Assembly (NCBI GenBank): GCA_001275005.1
Contig: JWZX01001780.1
Span: forward strand, 1-41,329
Length of the DNA stretch: 41,329 nt
Reading direction: 5' to 3'
From: Chrysochromulina tobinii
Taxonomy: Eukaryota
Within the stretch, counting starts at the first letter, position 1; every line of letters begins with the position of its first letter. The position numbers and the translations under genes were made by a program. The notes below the pieces were generated by a model. The model was not told where the DNA came from. It made no database searches and saw only the letters and a program-made list of their open reading frames with translations. Shown here in pieces: positions 97-41,113 of the stretch.

Positions 97-1877
97 ATGG
101 ATTTGCTACGGCCTTCCGCGAAGCGCAGTCGGTGGCTCTTCCTTCCGGCGGCGATGCTTGTCTGCTGCATGCTTGGCCACGTCACTGCCGAGCTGTCGTC
201 GCCGCAATGGAACGAGGGCTGCCTCTGCGAGCTCAAGCCGACGCCCGCGGCTTCATCCTCGAGCCTCGCAATGCACACGATCTTTGGCCAGCGCTACTTC
301 CGCAAGAATGGGCGCGTCTCGCGGTTCTGCCCGTGCTCTGTCGAGACTGTGCAGCAGCTCAACCAAGAGCTTATCGCGCCGCTCCTCTTCCCGCTGCTGA
401 ACAGCACGTACTTCCGCTACGTCAAGCTCTCGCTCGAGCGGACATGCCCATTCTGGGACGACGGGCACGGCATGTGCGCGCTGCGCGACTGCGCCGTCGA
501 AGCGTGCAGCGCGGACGAGGAGCGGCGGCTGGACCAGTGCGGTGAGGAGCTCGGCGACGACCAGCTCGGGGATGTGCAGCGCACGGACGCCGCGACGCTC
601 GGCGAGCAAGCTCCGTCCTGGGACCTTGCTGCTTCCCGGTGGACAGACCAGCTCGAAGTGGACAACGACGGCGGCGCCGAGTACGTGGATCTCGTGGACA
701 ACCCGGAGCAGTACACGGGGTACAGCGCCGCCGCGGGCGCCTCGCGCATCTGGGACGAGCTCCACACGCACAACTCGTTCGCTGAGCACGGCGCCGACGA
801 TGCGCGCCACGCGGCGCCGATGGCGGTGGAGCAGCGGCTATTCGCGCGGCTGCTCTCGGGTCTGCATGCATCGGTCTCGTCGCACATTGCGATCCACTAC
901 CTGCTCGACCGGCGCAACGGCACCTGGGGGCTCGAGCTCGACGAGTACGCTAGACGGTTAGGTGAGCACTTAATAGACGGTTACGCTAGTCGAGTACCGG
1001 TCGCCGGAGAGGCTGCATCCCTCGATGATGCTCGATTGCCTTTGATTGCCGCTGATGATGAGTGATCATGCTTGGTTAGGTAACCACCCGGAGAGGCTGC
1101 ACCATCTGCACCTGACGTACCTGACGGTCCTGCGGGCGCTCGAGCTGGCGGCGTCGCACCTGAGCGAGCGCTTTGCGTTCTCGACAGGCATGCCCCGAGA
1201 GGACGCGCGAGTCGCGCGCGAGGTGCGCGCCCTCCTCGCCTCCCGCCCCGAGTGGCCTCTCACGTTTGAGGAGCAACGCGCCTTCGTGGGCGTACGATGC
1301 GCCTCGACGCTGGTCGCCTCGGCCGAGCAGATGTCCAAATTAGGCAGCTCGGACGACACAAATACTGGATGCCATCACGGCGCCGAGGAGGAGCTGCTCG
1401 CTGCGCGCACGCAACTGCTCGGCGAGTACCGCTCGCGACTGCAGAACATCTCGAAGCTCATGGACTGTGTGGGGTGCGGCCGCTGCCGGCTGTGGGGAAA
1501 GCTGCAGGTGCACGGTCTCGCGACGGCGCTCTCGCCCAGCATACCAGTGCTCACCACGGCGCGTGCTCCCTGCTCCACAGGTGCACGGTCTCGCGACGGC
1601 GCTCCGTATCCTATACGCTCCCCACCGTCAGCTTGTGCTTCACTCGCTGCAGAGGCCCGACGTCGTCGCGCTGTTCAACCTCCTCGGCCGTCTTGCCCAC
1701 TCGGTCGAGGTGGCGCGCGTCGTCGTGCCGCTGCTCGGCGGGTCTCCGCATTCGAAGTGCTCGCCGCGCGGGTGCAAGGCGTCCGAGTGGATCTCGGGCG
1801 ATGGCGACGATGAGACCAGCACGGTCCACCCCGATGGGCTTTTTGGCGCCGCCATGGGCGCCTCTCTCTTTAGTTGA
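97..1877 (+). CDS. ERO1: ER oxidoreductin 1 (ERO1); exons 97-961, 1080-1507, 1581-1877
   Basis: Signal-peptide-like N-terminus; CPFW...CALRDC shuttle cysteines; YVDLVDNPEQYTGY; LLSGLHASVSSHI; C-terminal MDCVGCGRCRLWGKLQ (CxxCxxC). GT-AG introns restore RLGNHPERL and KLQVHGLATALRILY. Confidence 0.93.
962..1079 (+). other. Intron (118 nt), ERO1 intron 1; motif-A-like 3' half plus patchwork copies of flanking exon
   Basis: GTGAGC...TTAG; GGTTAGGT at both junctions (956-963, 1074-1081); GATTGCC/CTGATGA repeats. Confidence 0.85.
1508..1580 (+). mobile_element. Introner-like intron (73 nt), motif B, 27-nt perfect flanking duplication
   Basis: CAGGTGCACGGTCTCGCGACGGCGCTC at 1505-1531 and 1578-1604; internal AGTGCTCACCACGGCGC; ends CCACAG. 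Confidence 0.85.
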
Positions 1878-1950
1878 GGGGTGGCGCCGTCATGGGCGCC
1901 TCTCTCTTTAGTTGAGGGGTGGCTCCGTCATGGGCGCTTTAGTTGAGGGG
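1844..1950 (+). repeat. 38-bp tandem repeat (~2.7 copies) overlapping the ERO1 stop codon
   Basis: TGGCGCCGYCATGGGCGCCTCTCTCTTTAGTTGAGGGG starting at 1844, 1882 and 1920 (third copy internally deleted). Confidence 0.9.
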
Positions 1951-2531
1951 CAGTTGCTGAGAGATGCGAGTGGCTCATCATTCCACAGAACCTCGGGGCT
2001 CGAGCATAACGAACCATTGGTACCGTAGTATGGCGCAGAGTTCAGAGCCCGTGAGCCCCACACAGCCGCGGGGACATCTTCCCCATAGAGATACCGTAGT
2101 AGAGACGGAGATAACGAGTCGTGGGCCAACGTCATTCATCCCACATAATCCTTGGACAGCGGCCGCAGAACACACCCTACGTTGAATTGGCCAACGCGGT
2201 TCTCGAGTTCGATGCCGCGTCAACCGCACTGACTGGACGGACTTAGGACGGACTGCTCCATGGACTGCCCTCACGCCTCACGTCGCTTTAAGTCAACAGG
2301 CTGCCCACTCGTCTCGCTTCTTGCAAGACGGCGCGCAAAATAGTATCTGCATGCGAACCGCAGTTGTGTTGGGTGTTGAATCAGAAACATTGACTGTGAA
2401 GTGTGAATGCATGCACACTTGTCTTTGGATTAGGATTGTGTGCGATACAAAATTGAGAGCTACATCTGAACAGGTCTCCCATCCGCCCCGGCTGAACCCT
2501 GTGTTTCCAGAGAGCAGAGCCCACAAGCAAT

Positions 2532-5348
<2,817 letters not shown>

Positions 5349-5566: not shown

Positions 5567-5908
5567 AATCACTCAGTTTGTAATCAGGGTATGTGAGGAA
5601 GGGGTGCAAATCCATATCCCTCCCCTACCCCCTCGTGGGTAAATCACTCAGTTTGTAATCAGGGTATGTGAGGAAGGGGTGCAAATCCAGATATTAATCC
5701 CTCCCCTTACCCCTACCCCCTCGTGGGTAAATCACTCAGTTTGTAATCAGGGTATGAGGAAGGGGTGCAAATCCAGATATTAATCCCTCCCCTACCCCCT
5801 CGTGGGTAAATCACTCAGTTTGTAATCAGGGTATGAGGAAGGGGTGCAAATCCAGATATTAATCGATATTATTAATCCCTCCCCTTACCGCCTACCCCCT
5901 TGGGTAAA
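5567..5908. repeat. Minisatellite, 4 copies of a ~75-100 bp unit
   Basis: AATCACTCAGTTTGTAATCAGGGTATG...GGAAGGGGTGCAAATCC...CCCCTCGTGGGTA starting at 5567, 5642, 5730, 5809. Confidence 0.93.
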
Positions 5909-8634: not shown

Positions 8635-11600
8635 TCATCCGCGGGGACTGCCGCTCGGCGGCCTCGGGATCGCATAATGACCATCACCGGTAGCCGCCGC
8701 CCGCACCAGCGACGCCGGCGGCCCACCGGCCACGCCGCTAGGCGGCGTCCAAACGCGCTCCATCTTATGTGGAATGAGCCCAGTGGCTACTTGGCCAGAG
8801 GGGCGCGCGGGCATGAGTGAGCCCGTGGAGCGCCGTCCCGGCGTGGGGGGACGACCGAGCGCGAGCGGCGTGTTGAGCGCATTCTCGAGCGGGGTACGCG
8901 GGCGTGCCGAGGAGGCGGGCGGCGCGAGCGGCGAGGTCGCGAGCGCGGACCTCGGCGCGAGGGGCGTCGTGGTGAGGGCGGCGATCTTGGAGTTTGGCAG
9001 AGGCGCAGGGTCTGCAAGCGTGTAGATCAGGCTGTTGAGCGCCGAGGGCGTCAGCGCGGCCGACCTTGCCGTCGAGCCCACGACGGCGCCACCTGCACCA
9101 CTTGCTGGCGACGTAAGAGGCAGCGGCAGCCTTCCCGAGGCATGGAGCTTCGACATGGGGTCGGTGAGCGTTGTGACCGTCGCGGCGCGAGGCGGTACGC
9201 GCGGCACGGAGGCGGAGGGGCGCAGCCCTCGTCGAGGTGTATCGCTTTCGGCCGCTCGCATGTGCCGCTCGAGCATCCCTGCATCGGGCAGCGAGGGCCT
9301 CGCGCTCCGCTCGCGCCTCCGCCGCCTCGCGCAGGCTCTTGTGGGACAACTCAATCGCAGCCTGCGTCGCGGCAGCCGCCTCGGCGGCCGCGGTCTTGGC
9401 GCGGAGACGCAGCTCGTCAGGGTCGATCCCGGCATGCCCACGCGCCGTCTCGAGCGCCTCGTCGGCGTTCTTGGCGCGCGCCTGCTCGAGATAGAGCTGC
9501 TCGCGAAGCTTGGCCTCGGTCTCTGCGGCCTGCGCGATCTCCCACCGAGCTCGCTGCAGCTCGGCACGGAGCTTGTCGGCCACGTCCTTGGACTGCTGTG
9601 CTTCGGCCACCTCTCGCTGCACGTACGCGTCGAGCTCGTTCATCTTGAGGTACGCTTCGCGCGCCGTCATCACGAGACTCCCCTCTTGCTTGCGCAGCGC
9701 AGCGACCGACTCGCTCGCCTGCGAGAGCGCCGTGCTGAGCAGTTGCGTCTTCTCCATCTCGTCGTCGAGCTTGTTCGAGATCGCATCGCGCTCCTCGAGC
9801 GCCTTGTCGACGGCCTTGCGGCTCGCCTGCTCGGTCGCGACGCCCAAGACGACGCGTCAGCTCGCCATCAGTTTCCATCAGGGCCACTCATAGGCAATCA
9901 GAGGTCATCAGCTCACCTGCTCGGTAGCGACGCTCTCGCAGCGCACGTCCTCGGCATCGGCCTCCGCGTCACGCAGAGCCTTTCTCCGCAGGCCGAGCGT
10001 AACCGTCAGGCGCGAACACTGCCAGCGCAGCCGCGCGCGTGGTACCGAGCGTTGCAAGCGGGCCGCCATATCCTCCGCCGAGTCTTGCAGCAGCGCGAGC
10101 GCGCGTACGGTGTCTGCATGCACGGCACGCGTCTCATCGAGCGCGGCGCTCTTCTCTGCCATGAGCCGCTGCAGCCTCAAGACTTCCTGCATCACATCCG
10201 TCAGCGTGGGCGCGCGCTCGGTGGTGAGCACTTGCATGCAAGGCAGGCCATCAGCATGCAATCAACGTACCTGCATCACATCCGTCAGCGTGAGCGCGCG
10301 CTCGAGCTCGTCGGCCCTCGCCTGAAGCGCCTTCAGCTCGGCTTGCAGTTTGGCCGTCGCCTTCTCGAGCTTCGCCTTCTCGAGCTTCATGAAGACATTC
10401 TCACTGGTGAGAGCGGTGTTCTTCACGAGAAGGTCCGCCTTCTCCTTGAGCGCCCGCTTGAGCAGCATGTCCAGATTCGTCTTCTTGTGCAGCTGGTCCT
10501 CGAGATCCAGCTGCACCTGCATCGCCTTCTCCTTCTCGCGCCGCACTCGCTCCCTGTAGATGATCTCGACGTGCTTCGCAGAGTATTCCGAGTCGGTTTC
10601 ACGCAGCATCGAACCCGCGGCCTCGTCGATGGCTTTGTTGTCCGCCGACGTGGCCGCGATCCCGAGCAGCTTGTACAGCCTCATCGCGAGCAGCCCTTGG
10701 CTGCTGCTGCTGCTCCCGCCACCGCCACCGCTATCCTTGTCCTTGCTGCCGCTGCTGCCGCTGCTGTCCTTGCCACCCTTGCCGCCACCCTTGCCGCCGC
10801 CCTTGAATGAGCCGCCCTTGAATGAGCCGTCCTTGGCGCCGCTAGGCTCATTCAGCTCGCTCAAGTCGAGGTTGAGCATGCCGATGACGCCCCCCGAAGG
10901 ACCACCCACGACGTTGGCGGGCAGCGGGTGCCCCGAGAGCACCTCGTACTCACCCACAAAGTCTCCTGGCTGCGCGGTCTTCTTGTGTGCAAAGCCCTGC
11001 TCGACCGAGCCGTGAAGCACGATGCCAAAGTGCCCAAGCGTATGCTCACGCAGCATGATGGTCTGCCCGGCATGGAACTGGAGGATACGCATCCCGTCGA
11101 AGAGCATGCTCACCTCTTCCGCCGACAGCCCACGCTTCTCGAGCGCTGCCCGCGCCTTGTCGAAACGCGACTGCTTAGCGTCGGTGGCGCCGGCCCCGGC
11201 GCCGGCGCCTCCTCGGAAGCTCCCGACTGCCATGGCGAGGCGCAGCACCGCCTCAGAGGTTCGCGGGATGATCTCCTGGATCTGCTCCATCTTGCGCACG
11301 GCGGCGCGTCCCATGGCGCGCACCAGCGTCGTCGCGGTCGTCGCCGACTTTTCGAACAGTCGAGGCATGCTCCCAAACTGCACAGCCGCAACGGTGCCGG
11401 CTGAGATGCCGATCATCGAGGCGCCGCGCTTGCCGCCGCGGAAGAAGGCCATTTCGCCGACTATTCGTCCAGGCGTCAGCGTGGCGAGCACGTGCGACCC
11501 GTGCCGCACCTCGAGCTGGCCGCCGAGCAGCAACCCAAACCACGAGGCGTCCTCGCCTTGCGTGACAATCTCCTGGCCCTCGGAGAAGTCGATAAAGTCC

Positions 11601-11925: not shown

Positions 11926-14289
11926 ATGCCCTCGCAGTCCTCGCAGCCCGACCCGCCGCCGGCGGCGGCGCCCATGCGGCTCAACTTTGGTACGGGCAAC
12001 GCCTCGCCTCGCGCCGCCGCCCTGCTTCGCGTGCCGATGCTCTCGGGCTCCAACCAGCACGGCGCAGTCCGTGTCCACGAGACGAGCTCAAAGAAGAAGA
12101 AGCACCTCTCCGCGTGGGCTGTCTTCAAGATGCTGCCAAAGGAAGTGTACATCGTCCTGCTCATCGACCTGCTCAACTCGTACCGCTCTTTCGGCTTCCG
12201 CTCCGTCCAGTACATCTACCTCGTCAACGAGTTTGGCGTCTCCGATCTGGACGCAGGCAAATTGCTCGGCGTGCAGGCGTGGCTCATGGTGGTCTTCGGC
12301 ATGCTCGGTGCGATGCTCGTGGACTCGTGGGGCGTGCGCAACACCGCCATCACCGCCCTATCGGTCGCCGCCGTCAGCCGCGGCCTGCTCGCCTTTGGAC
12401 AGGAGCGTAACACCATGGTCTTCGCACTGATCGCGCTCGCGCCTTTCGGCGAGGCGGTTCTCTCGACCGGCATCTACACGGTGGCGCTTAAGAAGCTGAC
12501 GACGCCCACGACGCGCGGCCTCGCCTTCGGCGTCCAGTATGGCGTCTTCAACCTCGCGGGCGCCCTCGCCGATGTGGCCGCCGACACGTTGCGTAAGTCG
12601 GACATTATGCTGCCGCGCTGGCTGCCTTGGCTCGGCGGTACGTACTGGTCGGGCCTGCGCGTGCACGTGTTCTTCACGTGGCTGGCGGTGCTCGCCGCGC
12701 TCGCCGTCTCCGTCGCGTGCCTGTACGATACCGTCCTCGTCCCTCTCGATGAGGACGAGCGCGAGGCTGCCAAGGGCTCAGCCTCGCCCGGCCCTGTCAC
12801 TTCCCCACTGCTCGCTGAGCTTCGTCATTCCGCCAACGCGGCGGAGCGTGCTCGCGGGTACGCGGTGCGCATCGCGCCCAAGACGGCGGCCGCGCAGCCG
12901 CCGCCGCTGCCAACGGCCAGCGAAAGTGAGGACGAGGACGAGGACGATCAGGATGAGGCCTCCAACTACGAGGCTTTCGAAGAGCGCAGCAGCGCCGCCG
13001 CCAGCGGCGGCAGCAAGGGCGGCGGCGGCGGTGCCGGCGCCGCGCCTCAGCGACAGCGGCGGCGGCGGCGAGCGACGGCGCTCACGGCGGCGCGTCGGCT
13101 CGTCGCGTCATGGCTGCGCCTCGCCCAGGAGCACGCGAGCAGCGCGGGCAAGTCGTTGCTCGAGCTACTCGGGATGCGAGCCTTCTGGCGCGCGCTCTGG
13201 CTCTCGTGCTGCCTGCTCTTTGTGTCCAAGCAGGTGCTTGCCTGTGCTTGCCTGTGCTTGCCTGCGAGTACCTGTGATTACCTGTGGTTACCTATGGTTG
13301 CCTGTGATTGCCTGTGCTTCTTTGTGCCCACTGAGTGCCACTGATCGCCACTGATCGCCACCGATTGCACCCGAGCAGTGGGGAGATATGGACCAGCTGC
13401 TGCCGCCCTTTTTGGAGCGTAACTACGGTGAGGACGTGCCCATCTTCTTAATCCACTCGTTGAACATGTGGATTGGCATGTTCGGCCCGTCGCTCGCGGC
13501 CGCGCTCACCATGCACCTCGAGGCGTTCGAGGTGATGCTGCCTGGATTGTGGGTGATGGCGCTCTCGCCTGCGTGGCTCGCCTTCGACCCGAGCGTAGAA
13601 GCAGTCGTGTGCTGGATTGTCTTCCTCTCGCTCGGCGAAGTGCTCTGGTCGCCGCGCCTCTCCGCGTGGATCGCGTCGGTGCGTCTCTGATGGCCGATGC
13701 TGAGCTCTGATTGCGTCCCTCATCTGATTGTCGCTCTGAGTGCGCCTGATGACCTTCGATTGCCTCCCTCATCAGGTGGCGCCCGAAGGACGGGAGGGTG
13801 CCTTCCTCGCGCTGCTCTCAATGAAGAGCCTCATCACCACCATCCCGTCGACCGCGCTTAACGGCTGGATGAACGCGGTATTCATCGCCCAACTGCCCTA
13901 CCTGCCGTCTGATCGCTGCTGATGACCTCTGATTAACATTGATGACCTCTGATGGTCCCCCTCATCAGGTGCTCAACCCCAACTGCCCTAGCTGCCGCGA
14001 CGAGCGTACCGGCCACTTCTGCTCTGAGCTTGTGCGGCTCAACGGCACCTTTGACGGGTGCAGTCCTCCCGGGCTCGGGATCCATCACGCGTGCGTGGGC
14101 GACGAGCATAGCGGCTCGATGGTGGCTCGTCGGTACGCGGACGGGAGCGGTCTCGAATGCCCCTCGACTTGCCAGCAGTGCCCGGGATGGGAGGGCGACG
14201 CGAAGCTGATGTGGACGATCGTGCTGCTCTCTTCCATCTCAAGCCCTGTGATGGTCCAGCTCTCGCTCAAGTACCTGCGCGACAGCTGA
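11926..14289 (+). CDS. MFS transporter, POT/PTR-like; exons 11926-13233, 13379-13678, 13776-13877, 13969-14289
   Basis: Multiple TM helices; GAMLVDSWGVR (MFS motif-A-like); RGLAFGVQYGVFNLAGA; SLGEVLWSPRL..VAPEGREG; long acidic central loop. Confidence 0.85.
13234..13378 (+). other. Intron (145 nt) composed almost wholly of 10-mer tandem repeats
   Basis: CAG|GTGCTT...GAGCAG|TGG; CCTGTGCTTG-type units grading into CTGATCGCCA units; restores SKQWGDMDQ. Confidence 0.85.
13679..13775 (+). mobile_element. Introner-like intron (97 nt), motif A
   Basis: Degenerate CTGAT repeats; ends CTGATGACCTTCGATTGCCTCCCTCATCAG; restores IASVAPEG. No clear long duplication. Confidence 0.82.
13878..13968 (+). mobile_element. 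Introner-like intron (91 nt), motif A, ~29-nt degenerate flanking duplication
   Basis: Starts GTATTCATCGCCCAACTGCCCTACCTGCCG versus exon GTGCTCAACCCCAACTGCCCTAGCTGCCG; CTGATGACCT repeats; ends CCCCTCATCAG. Confidence 0.85.
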
Positions 14290-27009: not shown

Positions 27010-29444
27010 ATGATGTGTCTCGTGTGTGCACCGGCTCCCAACGGTGTTTTTGCACGAGGTCAGTACGGGTTCCGGGAACTTTGTCTCAAGTGCTACGGGT
27101 ACATGGACGACCGGCTGGGTGTGACCCGCTCCCGGCAAACCGCCCGCGCGGTCATCGCTCGCGTCAATCCGGCCAAGGGCATGACGTTCGACGCCTCAAT
27201 GTGCAAGTACCGGGCCGTGCCGGCGGTGGCCGCTGCGCTCGGCTATACGGTGTTGACTGCGGAGGATGAGCGGGATCCCAATGCGCCGCCGGGCTGGAAC
27301 CTCTTCTGGACAGACCTTTCGGTCAGCCACCAGCGCGTTGCTGCGCTGCTCCCGCTGCAGAAAGTCAATCATTTCGCGGACATGACGACCTTGTGCAACA
27401 AGGCAACGTGCGCCAGCGTACTCAAGCGCGTGAGCCGCTCCTTCCCGCTCGAGTACAACTTCTACCCGCGGAGCTGGAAGCTGCCCAAGGAGGCGGCGGC
27501 GCTCCGCAAGCTCATGCTCAGCCCTGAGGCGCCGCGCGTGCTCATTGTCAAGCCCAACCGCGGTTGTCAGGGCGTCGACATCTCCATCTGCTGCACGAAC
27601 GACGAGCTCGACACAGCGCGTCAGGAGATGGGCCAGCAGTGCGTGGCGCAGGAGTACGTGGACAAGCCGCTGCTGCTCGACGGGTACAAGTTCGACCTGC
27701 GCATCTACGTGTGCGTCACGTGCTGCTCGCCCCTGCGCGTGCACTTGTATCGCGAGGGCATCGCGCGCCTGTGCACCGAAAAGTACGAGGCGCCCTCGGC
27801 GGGAGGACCGGCCATGATGGCGCCGCCGGCTGCCGCTGCGAGCCAATCTCCGCGTAGCTCGGCCAGTCGGCCAATGTCGGCGATCTCGGCCGCCAGGGCG
27901 GCGGGCAGGGTGGCTGCCAAGGCGACTGGTAAGGCGGACGCCAAGGGCAGTGCCAGCAGCAGCAGCGGCAGTGGCGCGAGCAACAGCAGAAATGAAAGCG
28001 GCTCGTCAACGGTCGCCCAGGCGGGGATGGAGGGAGTGTCCCCGTCAGGCAGCACCGCCGCGGGTGCCCCGGGAGCCGCAGCGTCGGATGGCGCGAGCTC
28101 GAGCGGCGCAGGCGTGCGCGCGCCCAAGACGGCGTCCAAGGTGACGGCGGCGGCGGCGGCGACTGACTGGCGCTACCGGCATCTGACGAACTATGCGATC
28201 AACAAGACGCATCCCGACTTCGTTGTGGGTGGTGAGGACGGCTCCTCGAAGCGGCTGCTCACCGAGCTGCTCGACACGCTCCGCCGCGACGGCTTCGACG
28301 TGGACATGCTCTGGGGGGAAGTACAGCAGCTGGTGGTCAAGACGCTGATCGCCGTGCAGCCGCACATAGCGCATTCGTATACGAGCTGTCGGCCCGCGAC
28401 GGACACGCACCCGTTCTCGTGCTTCGAGCTCCTGGGCCTCGACCTGCTCATTGATGAGAGTGGGCGCCCGTGGCTGCTCGAGGTGAACCACTCGCCCTCG
28501 CTCGAGCGCTGTGTGCTGATGACCGATGATGACCACTGATGACCAATGATTGCTTCCCTCATCAGGTGAACCACTCGCCCTCGCTCGCGACCGACACGCC
28601 CCTCGACCGCGAGCTCAAATCTCGTCTGCTCTCGGATACGATTCGACTCTGCTCCTTCTCGGCCGCCGAGGCGCGCTTGGTAGCACGCGCGGCGGAGCGG
28701 CGCGACGCGGCGCCCGCCGCGATCCCGAAGCTGCGCCCCATCGCCGAGCCGGGCTCCTCGGAGCGCTCACGGCGGCTCAGTGCTGACGGCGGCATCTCGA
28801 CGCTGCGTGCACGCCTAGAGGTCGCGCGTGAGCGTTCGAGGAGCGCTACGAGCGCTACGAGCGGCTTCAGCTCGGTCGCGGCGTCCTTTGGCTTCGGCGC
28901 GCGCGGGCTGGAAACACGACTCGGGATGCCCGGCGTCAAGCAGCAGCTCGTGCAGCAAGGCCTCGCGGAGCGCCGCCAGCAAGCAGAGCTGACCCAGGCG
29001 GAGCTGCTACGGTTGCGGGAAGAATATGAGGCGGCCAATTCGAGCTCATTCGAGCTCGTCTTCCCGGCGCCACATGAGAAGCTCCAGTCTCTCTATGAGA
29101 TGCTGCTCAACGCGTCGCTGCGCGCGTACATCGAGGAGTCCCCCGTCAACTTCAACGGCGGTGCGCGCGTGCCCATCCCGCCGCTGCTGCCACCCGACGC
29201 TGGTGCCGACTGGTGGTCGATGATCAAGCTCGGGCGCGTGGGCGAGCGCATCCTGCAGATGGGCAGTGACGCACCCAGCGCCATCGCGCGCTCGGCACAG
29301 CGCGACGCGGTCGCTTCGCGTACGGCGCGTCCGGGGGGGGAGCGCGAGCACTGCCGACCGACGGGCGCGCCGCCGGCCGACGAGGAGGACGGCGTCGACG
29401 GCGACGACGCCTCCGCTGGCCACTGTGTGACCTCGGAGATGTGA
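27010..29444 (+). CDS. Tubulin-tyrosine-ligase-like polyglutamylase (TTLL6/7/11/13-like); intron 28483-28565
   Basis: WNLFWTD, QKVNHF, FYPRSW, IVKPNRGCQG, QEYVDKPLLLDGYKFDLRIYV, HLTNYAINK, CFELLGLD, PWLLEVNHSPSL..DTPLD. Confidence 0.92.
28483..28565 (+). mobile_element. Introner-like intron (83 nt), motif A, 24-nt perfect flanking duplication
   Basis: AGGTGAACCACTCGCCCTCGCTCG at 28481-28504 and 28564-28587; TGATGACC(A/G) 10-mers; ends GATTGCTTCCCTCATCAG. Confidence 0.9.
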
Positions 29445-32900: not shown

Positions 32901-34346
32901 GCGAGCTGCGCACTCACGAGGGCAGCCTGCTCGCCCTCCGTGCCTCTCTCTAGGAGCATCGGGTGGTTACAGGCCTTGCGCAGCTGCATGAACACGTTGC
33001 GCAGCGACGAGCGCGGGTTTTGGATGTGCTCCACCGAGCAGTCCATCAGAGCGCGGTACACGCGCATCTGCGAGGGCGTGAGAGACACCTTGAGCAGTGT
33101 CTCTCTCTTCGTAGGAAGTGGCTGAGTGAGCTCGGCCTTGGTGCGACGCAGCACGTACGGGCGTAGCATCTGCTGCAGCTCCACTACCTGCTCCGGTCGC
33201 CGCAGGTCACCGTACCGGCTGAGTAGCTCGGGACGACGCGCCTCCCCGAAAGCCTCCTCGTCCAAAAAGGACATCAGACCGAGGAGCTCTGGTACGTCAT
33301 TTTGCACTGGCGTGCCCGTGAGCAACGTGCAGTGCGGCACCTGCAGCGCGCGCAGCGACGCGGCGAATTTGGTGCGTGGGTTCTTGAGCCGGTGCGCCTC
33401 GTCGACGATCAGATACTGCCATGGGATGGCCGAGATCGCTGCGAGCTCAGCCGTGAGCCCCTCGGGCGCCGTAATGAGCACATGGTACCGCCGGCAGCCG
33501 GTGCGCCGCTGGCGCGCATCCGTGTGGTGCTCCTCGTTCGCAAGCAGCGAGTGGCGCGCCTCGGCGGGGCCGGTGAGCACCACGCCGCTCAGAGAGGTCC
33601 AGGCGCGCACCTGAGGAGGGAGGCAATCATTGGTCATCAGTGGTCATCAGTGGTCATCAGTGGAAGAGGGCCGCATGCAGCGACGTCCAGGCACGCACCT
33701 CACGCTCCCAGTGTGCGAGCGTCGAGACGGGCGCGACGACCAAAAAGGGACCTTGCACGTTCCGATGGCGGCTCAGCCATTCGAGCGTGAGCAGCAGCTG
33801 GCATGTCTTACCCAGCCCCATCTCGTCCGCCAGGATGGCGGAACGGCCCGCGTGCCAGCATGCCAGCAACCAATTAATGCCCTCGAGCTGGTAGCCACGC
33901 AGCGCACGCCCCGGAGGCAGCTGCAGCTCCGGCTCGGTCTGGGGTCGGAAGGGTCGGCTCCTCTCAACAGCCCGCATCTCATCGGAGGGCGCAGGCAGAG
34001 GTGGGCGCACCAGCAGCGCGTGGCAGCGGCGCCATGCCTCAGCGGCGCCACATAGCCGGCGCGCGCGCGCCCACGGTAGCCAGGAGAGCTGCGCATAGTC
34101 AAGGCCACGCCACTTGATCAGCACTAACGAGCGCCGGCGAGGCGGCGTTTGTGCGGCAGCAGCGGCAGCAGCGGCAGCAGCGGCAGCAGCGGCAGCAGCG
34201 GCAGCAGCGGCAGCGGTCGATGGCACTCGCCCGGCCTCTGCCGCTGGACCGGCAGAGCAACCCCCGCTCGGGCGCCCTTCTGGCGCGCCCTCCCGATGAC
34301 GAAAGGGCGTGTCGTTGTCGCCGCCGCCGCCGCCGCCGCCGCCGCT

Positions 34347-40332: not shown

Positions 40333-41113
40333 TCATGGCGCACCCCCTGTGAGTGAGATGGTGGCTGCAAGCAGCGAGCGCACGTGCATGTCGAGCCGGA
40401 TGAAGGTCTTGGGCTCGAGCGCGTCCACGTCAATCTTGATTTCGCGCCCGTCGGCGCACGTCTCGACCGCATGCGACGAGAACGCCTCGGCGAGCCGCCC
40501 GATCTGCACTCGCTGGTCGTCGCTCAGCTTGACGACGTTGTCAAGAAGCTGGTGGCGCATCTGCGGCGTGATGAAGAAGGGCGCTCCGCTCTGCACAGGC
40601 ACGTTGCCCACACCACGAATGGACAGAGGCGGCGCGCGCGTCACGCCGGACGGCTTGCGTGCGAGGCCAGGAGGACGAGATTCGGCCTCCGAGAACTTCT
40701 TGGACGCAATCGAGCGCATCTCGTCAATGTACTTTTTGATCCACGAGTTCGGGCCGTTGTAGGTGAGTGCGTTCTGCCAGACGAGGTCGACGTCCGCGCG
40801 CAGCGCCGCCACAGTCTCGTACTCTAGGCTCTCGAGCTTTCGAAGGATGGTGCTCAAATCCATCGGATGCTCGATCACCTGTGGGGAAGGGGGGGGCGCC
40901 GTGGTGAGCACTTGCATGCAGGGCCGGTGGAGCTCAAATCCATCGGATGCTCGATCACCTCGAGGTAGTTCCACAACTGCAATTTCTGCCAGTCGACCGG
41001 GTCCTTGAAGTATTTGGCCGACGGCTGCTGACGCAAGAGCCTGATCACCTTGTGGTACCTGCTCGCTACCTCCTCGCGCCCCTCGAGGTACCTGGCACCG
41101 CCGCCGCCGCCGC

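What the first reader, a model, noticed from the sequence alone, without database searches (positions are those of the whole stretch)
942..1101. ERO1 intron 1 is a patchwork of flank-templated snippets, resembling end-joining scars
Seen: the intron's 5' half strings together TAGACGGTTA (974-983 = 951-960), TACGCTAG (982-989 = 946-953), CGAGTAC (991-997 = 942-948) and CCGGAGAGGCTGCA (1004-1017 = downstream exon 1088-1101). Motif-A-like repeats follow, and GGTTAGGT sits at both junctions. Known: iterative templated insertions from break-proximal DNA are a hallmark of polymerase-theta-mediated end joining. Inference: these introns may arise during double-strand-break repair with template switching rather than by classical transposition.
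Basis: partly seen in the sequence, partly recalled or inferred. Interest (0 to 1): 0.78.

Follow-up and report, generated by a model that had tools for sequence, protein, structure and literature searches.

The report
Repair scar inside a young intron
An intron in an algal ERO1 gene contains short exact copies of the gene's own neighbouring sequence; three of them likely form a small DNA-repair scar added after the intron arose, while the intron itself likely belongs to a widespread family made by inserting a short splice-signal cassette between two 10-45 base copies of the target site.

Summary
All four snippets are exact, and RNA contigs support the 118-nt intron 962-1079. Snippet cover exceeds every shuffle (0 of 1500). 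The three upstream snippets step back by exactly 13 nt at microhomologies, like loop-out SD-MMEJ/TMEJ. They are probably not the intron's birth. Of 21 near-identical alleles seen as read-through proteins, 10 carry the patch, 6 keep the intron about 29 nt shorter without it, and 5 stop too early to tell. No other clean three-step patchwork appeared in 676 kb. What is common is one colinear 10-45 nt copy of the flanking exon beside a shared cassette (85 of 112 cores vs 31 of 1120 controls), with no TIRs or fixed TSD. The ERO1 intron fits that family: the 14-nt exon-2 match is likely the remnant target-site copy. The scan found this family before on other DNA (e1-2577349). A published Introner screen lists C. 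tobinii with zero families. POLQ presence, allele DNA and insertion-versus-deletion polarity were not testable. Verdict: partly supported; new variant of a known kind.

The parts
97..961 (+). ERO1 exon 1, ends ...CGGTTAG
   Evidence: Pfam ERO1 2-196; RNA joint
940..960 (+). template block for the three upstream snippets; 938-950 and 951-963 form a 13-nt quasi-repeat (8/13)
956..963 (+). GGTTAG|GT, first copy, supplies the donor
962..1079 (+). ERO1 intron 1, 118 nt, GT..AG
   Evidence: joint skipping 118 nt in 2 of 3 RNA runs
962..969 (+). intron start, 6/8 like the exon-2 start; likely the first part of a diverged target-site copy
970..997 (+). 28-nt templated patch (start could lie anywhere from 963 to 970); likely a secondary insertion
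   Evidence: removing 28 nt gives the GEYRS or GEHRS starts seen in sister alleles
974..983 (+). snippet 1 = 951-960 (offset 23)
982..989 (+). snippet 2 = 946-953 (offset 36), 2-nt TA overlap with snippet 1
990..990 (+). T that interrupts the templated run; 10 of 10 patch-bearing alleles read Arg where the window reads Ser, compatible with A here and a 4-nt GACG microhomology
   Evidence: AGA is one of three single-base options
991..997 (+). snippet 3 = 942-948 (offset 49)
1004..1017 (+). 14-nt copy of exon 2 (1088-1101); likely remnant of the family's target-site copy; its reading (RRGCIPR*) is also present in patch-free alleles
1033..1059 (+). motif-A array shared with many other introns
1074..1081 (+). 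GGTTAG|GT, second copy, supplies the acceptor; weak wider likeness to the exon-1 end
   Evidence: 88 of 3000 controls as good
1080..1507 (+). ERO1 exon 2
   Evidence: Pfam ERO1 198-306
1508..1580 (+). ERO1 intron 2, 73 nt, typical family member: 24-nt perfect copy of the exon-3 start plus a motif-B cassette
   Evidence: joint in 3 of 3 RNA runs
1581..1877 (+). ERO1 exon 3
   Evidence: RNA contigs; C-terminus of P0026 and P0030

Best explanation
The 118-nt ERO1 intron is spliced and holds four exact copies of flanking exon sequence that likely come from two events: the intron was likely born as a shared splice-signal cassette inserted between two copies of a roughly 20-40 nt target site, and the three upstream snippets (28 nt) were likely added later by microhomology-primed template switching next to the existing donor. 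Step 1 (family anatomy shown, chemistry inferred): staggered cuts or nicks duplicate 10-45 nt, and a short cassette copied from elsewhere (motif-A array or motif-B core) is placed between the copies. Splice sites come from the cassette or from the duplicate; here both likely come from a duplicated GGTTAG|GT. I put retro-type insertion at staggered nicks and capture during break repair about level. Step 2 (pattern shown, enzyme inferred): a 3' end near 963-970 copied 951-960, re-primed 13 nt back on TA, re-primed 13 nt back on GACG, and rejoined the old intron on GAG(C/T)AC. Loop-out SD-MMEJ by polymerase theta is the most likely agent. The scar survived because it fell in intron sequence.
For: Allele read-throughs: of 27 cluster members listed (101 exist), 21 read into the intron. 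10 have the patch, 6 read EYRSRRGCIPR*, 2 EHR*, 3 EYR*. RRGCIPR* is window 1005-1028, so those 6 keep the intron about 29 nt shorter. Patch-free starts occur in two exon-1 haplotype groups, and outgroup residues lean to the patch-free group as basal (weak). The intron start without the patch aligns to exon 2 (0 of 3000 controls). Family: anchored exon copies at 38 of 89 motif-A and 72 of 123 motif-B acceptors vs 2 of 445 and 0 of 615 controls; 10 of 16 5'-cassette introns vs 2 of 160; 85 of 112 cores vs 31 of 1120. Both-sided duplicates like ERO1's were seen by eye at L036, L070, L113. Two predicted intron lengths (101, 76 nt) appeared as RNA joints. Secondary events that put upstream-exon copies inside an existing intron: L053 vs L009 and L044:8791-8904. 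Family introns have median 80 nt; 2 of 81 reach 118.
Against: Alleles were seen only as proteins, not DNA. The 6 short alleles need a second 1-nt change besides the 28 nt. EHR* could also arise by a 14-nt loss from the patch allele. Loss of the patch by microhomology deletion fits as well, so polarity is inferred. The likeness of the intron's 3' end to exon 1 is weak (88 of 3000), and the intron lacks the family's usual CTCATCAG or CCCACAG end. The family sample was picked by a motif-B search, mixes strains, and calls most introns by motif rather than RNA. No mobilising enzyme was found: none of 31 candidate ORFs had an RT or transposase hit. POLQ was not testable.
Confidence: 0.6

Rival explanations
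1. One reading: the whole intron, patch included, was written in one TMEJ-type repair event with several template switches; shorter alleles lost the patch later by microhomology deletion.
For: All snippets lie within about 30 nt of the junctions, with microhomology at the switches. GAG/GAGYAC repeats flank the patch and could drive deletion. DSB repair is a proposed intron-gain route (PMC3443670, passages).
Against: The patch matches its template perfectly while the exon-2 copy has diverged. Patch-free starts occur in two haplotype groups. The structure was the only clean case in 676 kb. The shared cassette is not flank-derived.
Confidence: 0.2
2. Same two-step history, but the patch came from serial replication slippage between the flank's 13-nt quasi-repeats, with no break and no polymerase theta.
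For: Both jumps are exactly 13 nt and the flank is 8/13 self-similar at that period. Tandem repeats of intron units are common in these loci.
Against: Each snippet starts further upstream, so the product is not a simple tandem array. Yu and McVey note loop-out SD-MMEJ resembles slippage but needs no repetitive sequence (PMC2943611, passages).
Confidence: 0.14
3. The intron is an ordinary MITE-type Introner with a short TSD, and the snippets are chance or decay.
For: Marine Chrysochromulina MAGs carry Introners, one with a 4-bp TSD (PMC9860276, passages and supplement rows). An 8-nt direct repeat brackets this intron.
Against: Snippet cover is beyond all shuffles. Family repeats run 10-45 nt with no modal length and no TIRs.
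Confidence: 0.04
4. Assembly or library artefact.
For: The DNA run laid may be the source of the window.
Against: RNA contigs of three runs carry the same sequence, and 10 other protein records read the same patch.
Confidence: 0.02

Closest known systems
Loop-out SD-MMEJ / polymerase-theta-mediated end joining templated insertions (PMC2943611, PMC2895639, PMC7407515; passages read)
   Same: Short direct-orientation copies of near-junction DNA, iterative, primed on 2-4 nt repeats.
   Different: Here it is a natural allele difference inside an intron; no break or enzyme is shown; the runs are 7-11 nt against the 3-8 nt cited for Drosophila.
Introners / Introner-like elements (PMC9860276; PMC12130899; bioRxiv 10.1101/2020.10.14.339549 parts 1-2 of 4)
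   Same: Shared internal sequence in many introns; one or both splice sites recruited from a duplicated target; presence/absence between relatives.
   Different: Published TSDs in the passages read are fixed and 3-9 bp. Here they are variable, 10-45 nt, make up about a third of the intron, and there are no TIRs. The 2025 supplement lists C. tobinii with 0 families.
Intron gain by tandem genomic duplication of an AGGT-bearing segment (PMC3443670, passages)
   Same: A duplicated AG|GT supplies donor and acceptor, as at 956-963 and 1074-1081.
   Different: A foreign, genome-wide shared cassette lies between the copies.
Small tandem duplications from fill-in of 3'-overhang breaks (PMC8355091, abstract only)
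   Same: Staggered ends give short duplications.
   Different: The abstract describes no captured cassette and no intron.

Membership tests
SD-MMEJ/TMEJ scar (28-nt patch) | insertion templated from DNA close to the junction | tested here: met
   23 of 28 nt covered by 7-nt-or-longer matches to the 30 nt upstream; 0 of 5000 shuffles
SD-MMEJ/TMEJ scar (28-nt patch) | microhomology at each template switch | tested here: inconclusive
   TA at switch 1 is shown; GACG at switch 2 needs 990=A, inferred from Arg in 10 of 10 alleles
SD-MMEJ/TMEJ scar (28-nt patch) | an insertion relative to the ancestral allele | tested here: inconclusive
   patch-free alleles exist, polarity only weakly rooted
SD-MMEJ/TMEJ scar (28-nt patch) | dependence on POLQ; POLQ/Ku/Lig4 present in the genome | not testable with these tools
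   no genome held; paper searches gave nothing on haptophyte POLQ at listing level
Intron birth by patchwork end joining | multi-snippet flank patchwork is general among these introns | tested here: not met
   11 of 81 vs 72 of 810; 1 clean three-step chain in 676 kb
DNA-transposon (MITE) Introner | fixed short TSD (3-9 bp) | tested here: not met
   10-45 nt, median 24, n=81; the detection floor was 10
DNA-transposon (MITE) Introner | terminal inverted repeats | tested here: not met
   longest end-to-end inverted match 2-7 nt, mode 3, n=81
Introner, broad sense | shared sequence across many introns | tested here: met
   24-nt core 94% mean identity, 26 of 55 identical, though selected by motif; motif-A array in this intron
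Introner, broad sense | splice site recruited from the duplicated target | tested here: met
   92 of 110 anchored copies begin with GT
Introner, broad sense | recent gain or presence/absence between relatives | tested here: met
   78-nt intron in L035 absent from L038; 10 distant ERO1 homologues read through the site, some being transcripts
Non-LTR (TPRT) mobilised element | autonomous RT partner or characteristic 3' tail | tested here: inconclusive
   no RT or transposase among 31 ORFs from a small sample; the defining features are recalled
Pure tandem genomic duplication | nothing but duplicated exon between the splice sites | tested here: not met
   motif-A array 1033-1059

The most novel reading that the evidence does not exclude
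In this haptophyte lineage thousands of introns are made not by a transposase but by break repair: staggered breaks duplicate 10-45 nt of exon and the repair polymerase switches template to copy a splice-signal cassette from another intron, so introns propagate through end-joining, and the ERO1 patch is a fresh footprint of the same template-switching enzyme.
Probability: 0.3. Interest if true: 0.85.

Novelty: new variant of a known kind. Interest (0 to 1): 0.52.

Why it matters
How new spliceosomal introns arise is still open, and few DSB-repair gains are documented. This lineage has many young introns whose anatomy (long variable target duplication plus a short cassette, no TIRs) fits neither MITE Introners nor plain duplication, and a published screen scored the species as Introner-free. 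Segregating alleles, including four forms of this one intron, make the order of events testable from existing sequence. The single ERO1 scar is modest by itself; it matters as a pointer to an active template-switching repair route.

Tried and rejected
No genome was held, so no POLQ/Ku/Lig4 search and no true genome-wide count. Records behind L081, L116 and L117 were not held. Scans for allele DNA in genome contigs and viral contigs found 0. A short-protein search for more alleles found none, and a second cluster look-up added no new member. Hairpin priming: no fold better than shuffles for 4 of 4 stretches. A long palindromic cassette parent: arms of 3-7 nt only in 176 cores. Alternative boundaries 957-1074 fail (no AG). 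Two-step chains: 43 hits vs 2-8 in shuffles, nearly all tandem repeats by eye, no second clean intronic patch. Retained-intron contigs were deeper than joined ones (7.6 vs 3; 9.1 vs 2.4), and 2025-4048 had no RNA cover, but contigs cannot give levels, so poor splicing is only a hint. One search timed out and was redone. Two look-ups of earlier findings returned nothing.

Full report
Observation. The four matches are exact at the stated places, and GGTTAGGT occurs only at 956 and 1074. The gene is ERO1: Pfam positions 2-196 lie before the intron and 198-306 after it. RNA contigs skip 118 nt with GT..AG ends in 2 of 3 RNA runs, fixing the intron at 962-1079; the retained form is in all 3, and intron 2 (1508-1580) is joined in 3 of 3. 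Matches of 7 nt or more to 30-nt flanks cover 37 nt; 0 of 1500 shuffles and 0 of 1500 real flanks reach this, though 15 and 21 of 1500 reach the count of 4. Cluster names place the organism with Chrysochromulina tobinii/parva.

Anatomy. The three upstream snippets sit at offsets 23, 36 and 49. The flank is 8/13 self-similar at period 13; switch 1 overlaps by TA and switch 2 would overlap by GACG if 990 were A. All 10 patch-bearing alleles read Arg where the window reads Ser, compatible with that A, though two other single changes also give Arg. No notable hairpin was found. This matches loop-out SD-MMEJ as described in passages of PMC2943611, PMC2895639 and PMC7407515.

Alleles. Two clusters hold 101 members; 27 were listed, and 21 of these read from exon 1 into the intron. 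Ten match the window's patch, six read EYRSRRGCIPR*, two EHR* and three EYR*. RRGCIPR* is window 1005-1028 in another frame. Removing 28 nt at 963-970 gives GEYRS or GEHRS, and one more base is needed for the six-record form. So at least six records keep the intron without the patch. The five short ones are ambiguous; EHR* also follows from a 14-nt loss. EY starts fall in two exon-1 haplotype groups, and a few outgroup residues favour the patch-free group as basal; this rooting is weak. Without the patch the intron start aligns to exon 2 (0 of 3000 controls); the 3' end resembles exon 1 only weakly (88 of 3000). Ten distant homologues (53-67% identity, plus P0018) read through the site, some of them transcripts, so the intron is likely a lineage-specific gain.

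Family. A motif scan gave 132 loci, 732 kb. I dropped 19 redundant or off-composition loci (676 kb left with the window), and 3 more allele duplicates for the anchor counts (667 kb). An anchored copy of the downstream exon lies upstream of 38 of 89 motif-A and 72 of 123 motif-B acceptors, against 2 of 445 and 0 of 615 mismatched controls; 92 of 110 start with GT. The mirror form, a 5' cassette plus an upstream-exon copy, holds for 10 of 16 against 2 of 160. 85 of 112 cores are bracketed by a repeat of 10 nt or more against 31 of 1120; by eye about 9 of the 85 lack splice sites and 3 are duplicated on both sides like ERO1. In 81 filtered introns the copies run 10-45 nt, median 24, with no TIRs and median intron length 80. 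RNA joints on L044 confirmed two predicted lengths (101 and 76 nt) and showed four more introns, three without a flank copy of 7 nt or more. L035 has a 78-nt member absent from L038, and L053 has a doubled 81-nt insertion at an existing donor absent from L009. Long direct repeats also allow clean loss, so these show turnover, not direction. The sample is motif-biased, mixes strains and is mostly not RNA-verified.

Is the patchwork general? No. Extra upstream snippets of 8 nt or more occur in 11 of 81 introns against 72 of 810 controls; off-diagonal downstream matches are enriched (14 of 81 vs 34 of 810) but by eye mostly continue the single copy after an indel. That set was chosen for a clear anchored copy, so I also ran a donor-free scan: 7 strand hits at 5 places, of which only ERO1 is clean, against 0 and 1 in shuffles. 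A two-step scan added no clean intronic case.

Mechanism. Shown: the intron, the snippets, the allele classes at protein level and the family anatomy. Inferred: birth by cassette insertion with a long target duplication; later addition of the patch by microhomology-primed template switching; polymerase theta as the enzyme. No RT or transposase appeared in 31 candidate ORFs, and POLQ could not be searched. Confidence in the two-step reading is 0.6; birth with the patch 0.2; slippage without a break 0.14.

Comparison and novelty. Introners in the passages read have fixed 3-9 bp TSDs; marine Chrysochromulina MAGs have Introners, one with a 4-bp TSD. The 2025 supplement lists C. tobinii with 0 families (12 of 14 files searched). 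The species' genome paper mentions 'intron' once and not these repeats (passages). Ten paper searches listed nothing describing this family or patch, judged from listings; the library lacks most subscription papers. The finding is real and half right: a true templated scar, probably secondary, in a member of an unusual intron family.

Noticed in passing
window 945-1062: The gene model P0026 reads ELDDDHAWLG, which corresponds to a different 118-nt in-frame junction (945-1062); RNA and model P0030 support 962-1079.
   Followed up: partly
window 962-1079 vs 1508-1580: Intron 1 appears retained in all 3 RNA runs while intron 2 is joined in all 3; retention would truncate ERO1 at 1063-1065. Contigs cannot give levels.
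   Followed up: partly
window 4688-4786, 10187-10270(-), 13879-13968, 28483-28565, 33612-33698(-), 40879-40958(-): Further candidate introns with flank copies of 8-27 nt exact plus motif cassettes; not RNA-verified, some boundaries off by a base or so.
   Followed up: partly
window 1848-1950: Degenerate triplication of about 36 nt spanning the ERO1 stop codon.
   Followed up: no
window 5567-5870: Tandem array of 75-88 nt units, near-identical, downstream of the gene ending at about 5348.
   Followed up: no
L006, L011, L014, L017, L022, L033, L041, L127, L128: Motif-B cores bracketed by 10-24 nt exact repeats with no evident splice sites, suggesting insertion independent of splicing.
   Followed up: partly
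L034:1497-1680, L042:4360-4550, L066:9348-9640, L009:6050-6180: Whole intron-plus-duplicate units repeated in tandem, with copy number differing between relatives; unequal crossover or assembly error.
   Followed up: no
motif-B cores, 176 copies: 40 of 176 begin with a 12-nt or longer palindrome centred on the sharp 5' boundary.
   Followed up: partly
L133:3001-3060: A motif-B cassette sits at the end of a viral-collection contig next to a 687-aa ORF with no Pfam hit; chimeric join or integrated phage-like DNA.
   Followed up: no
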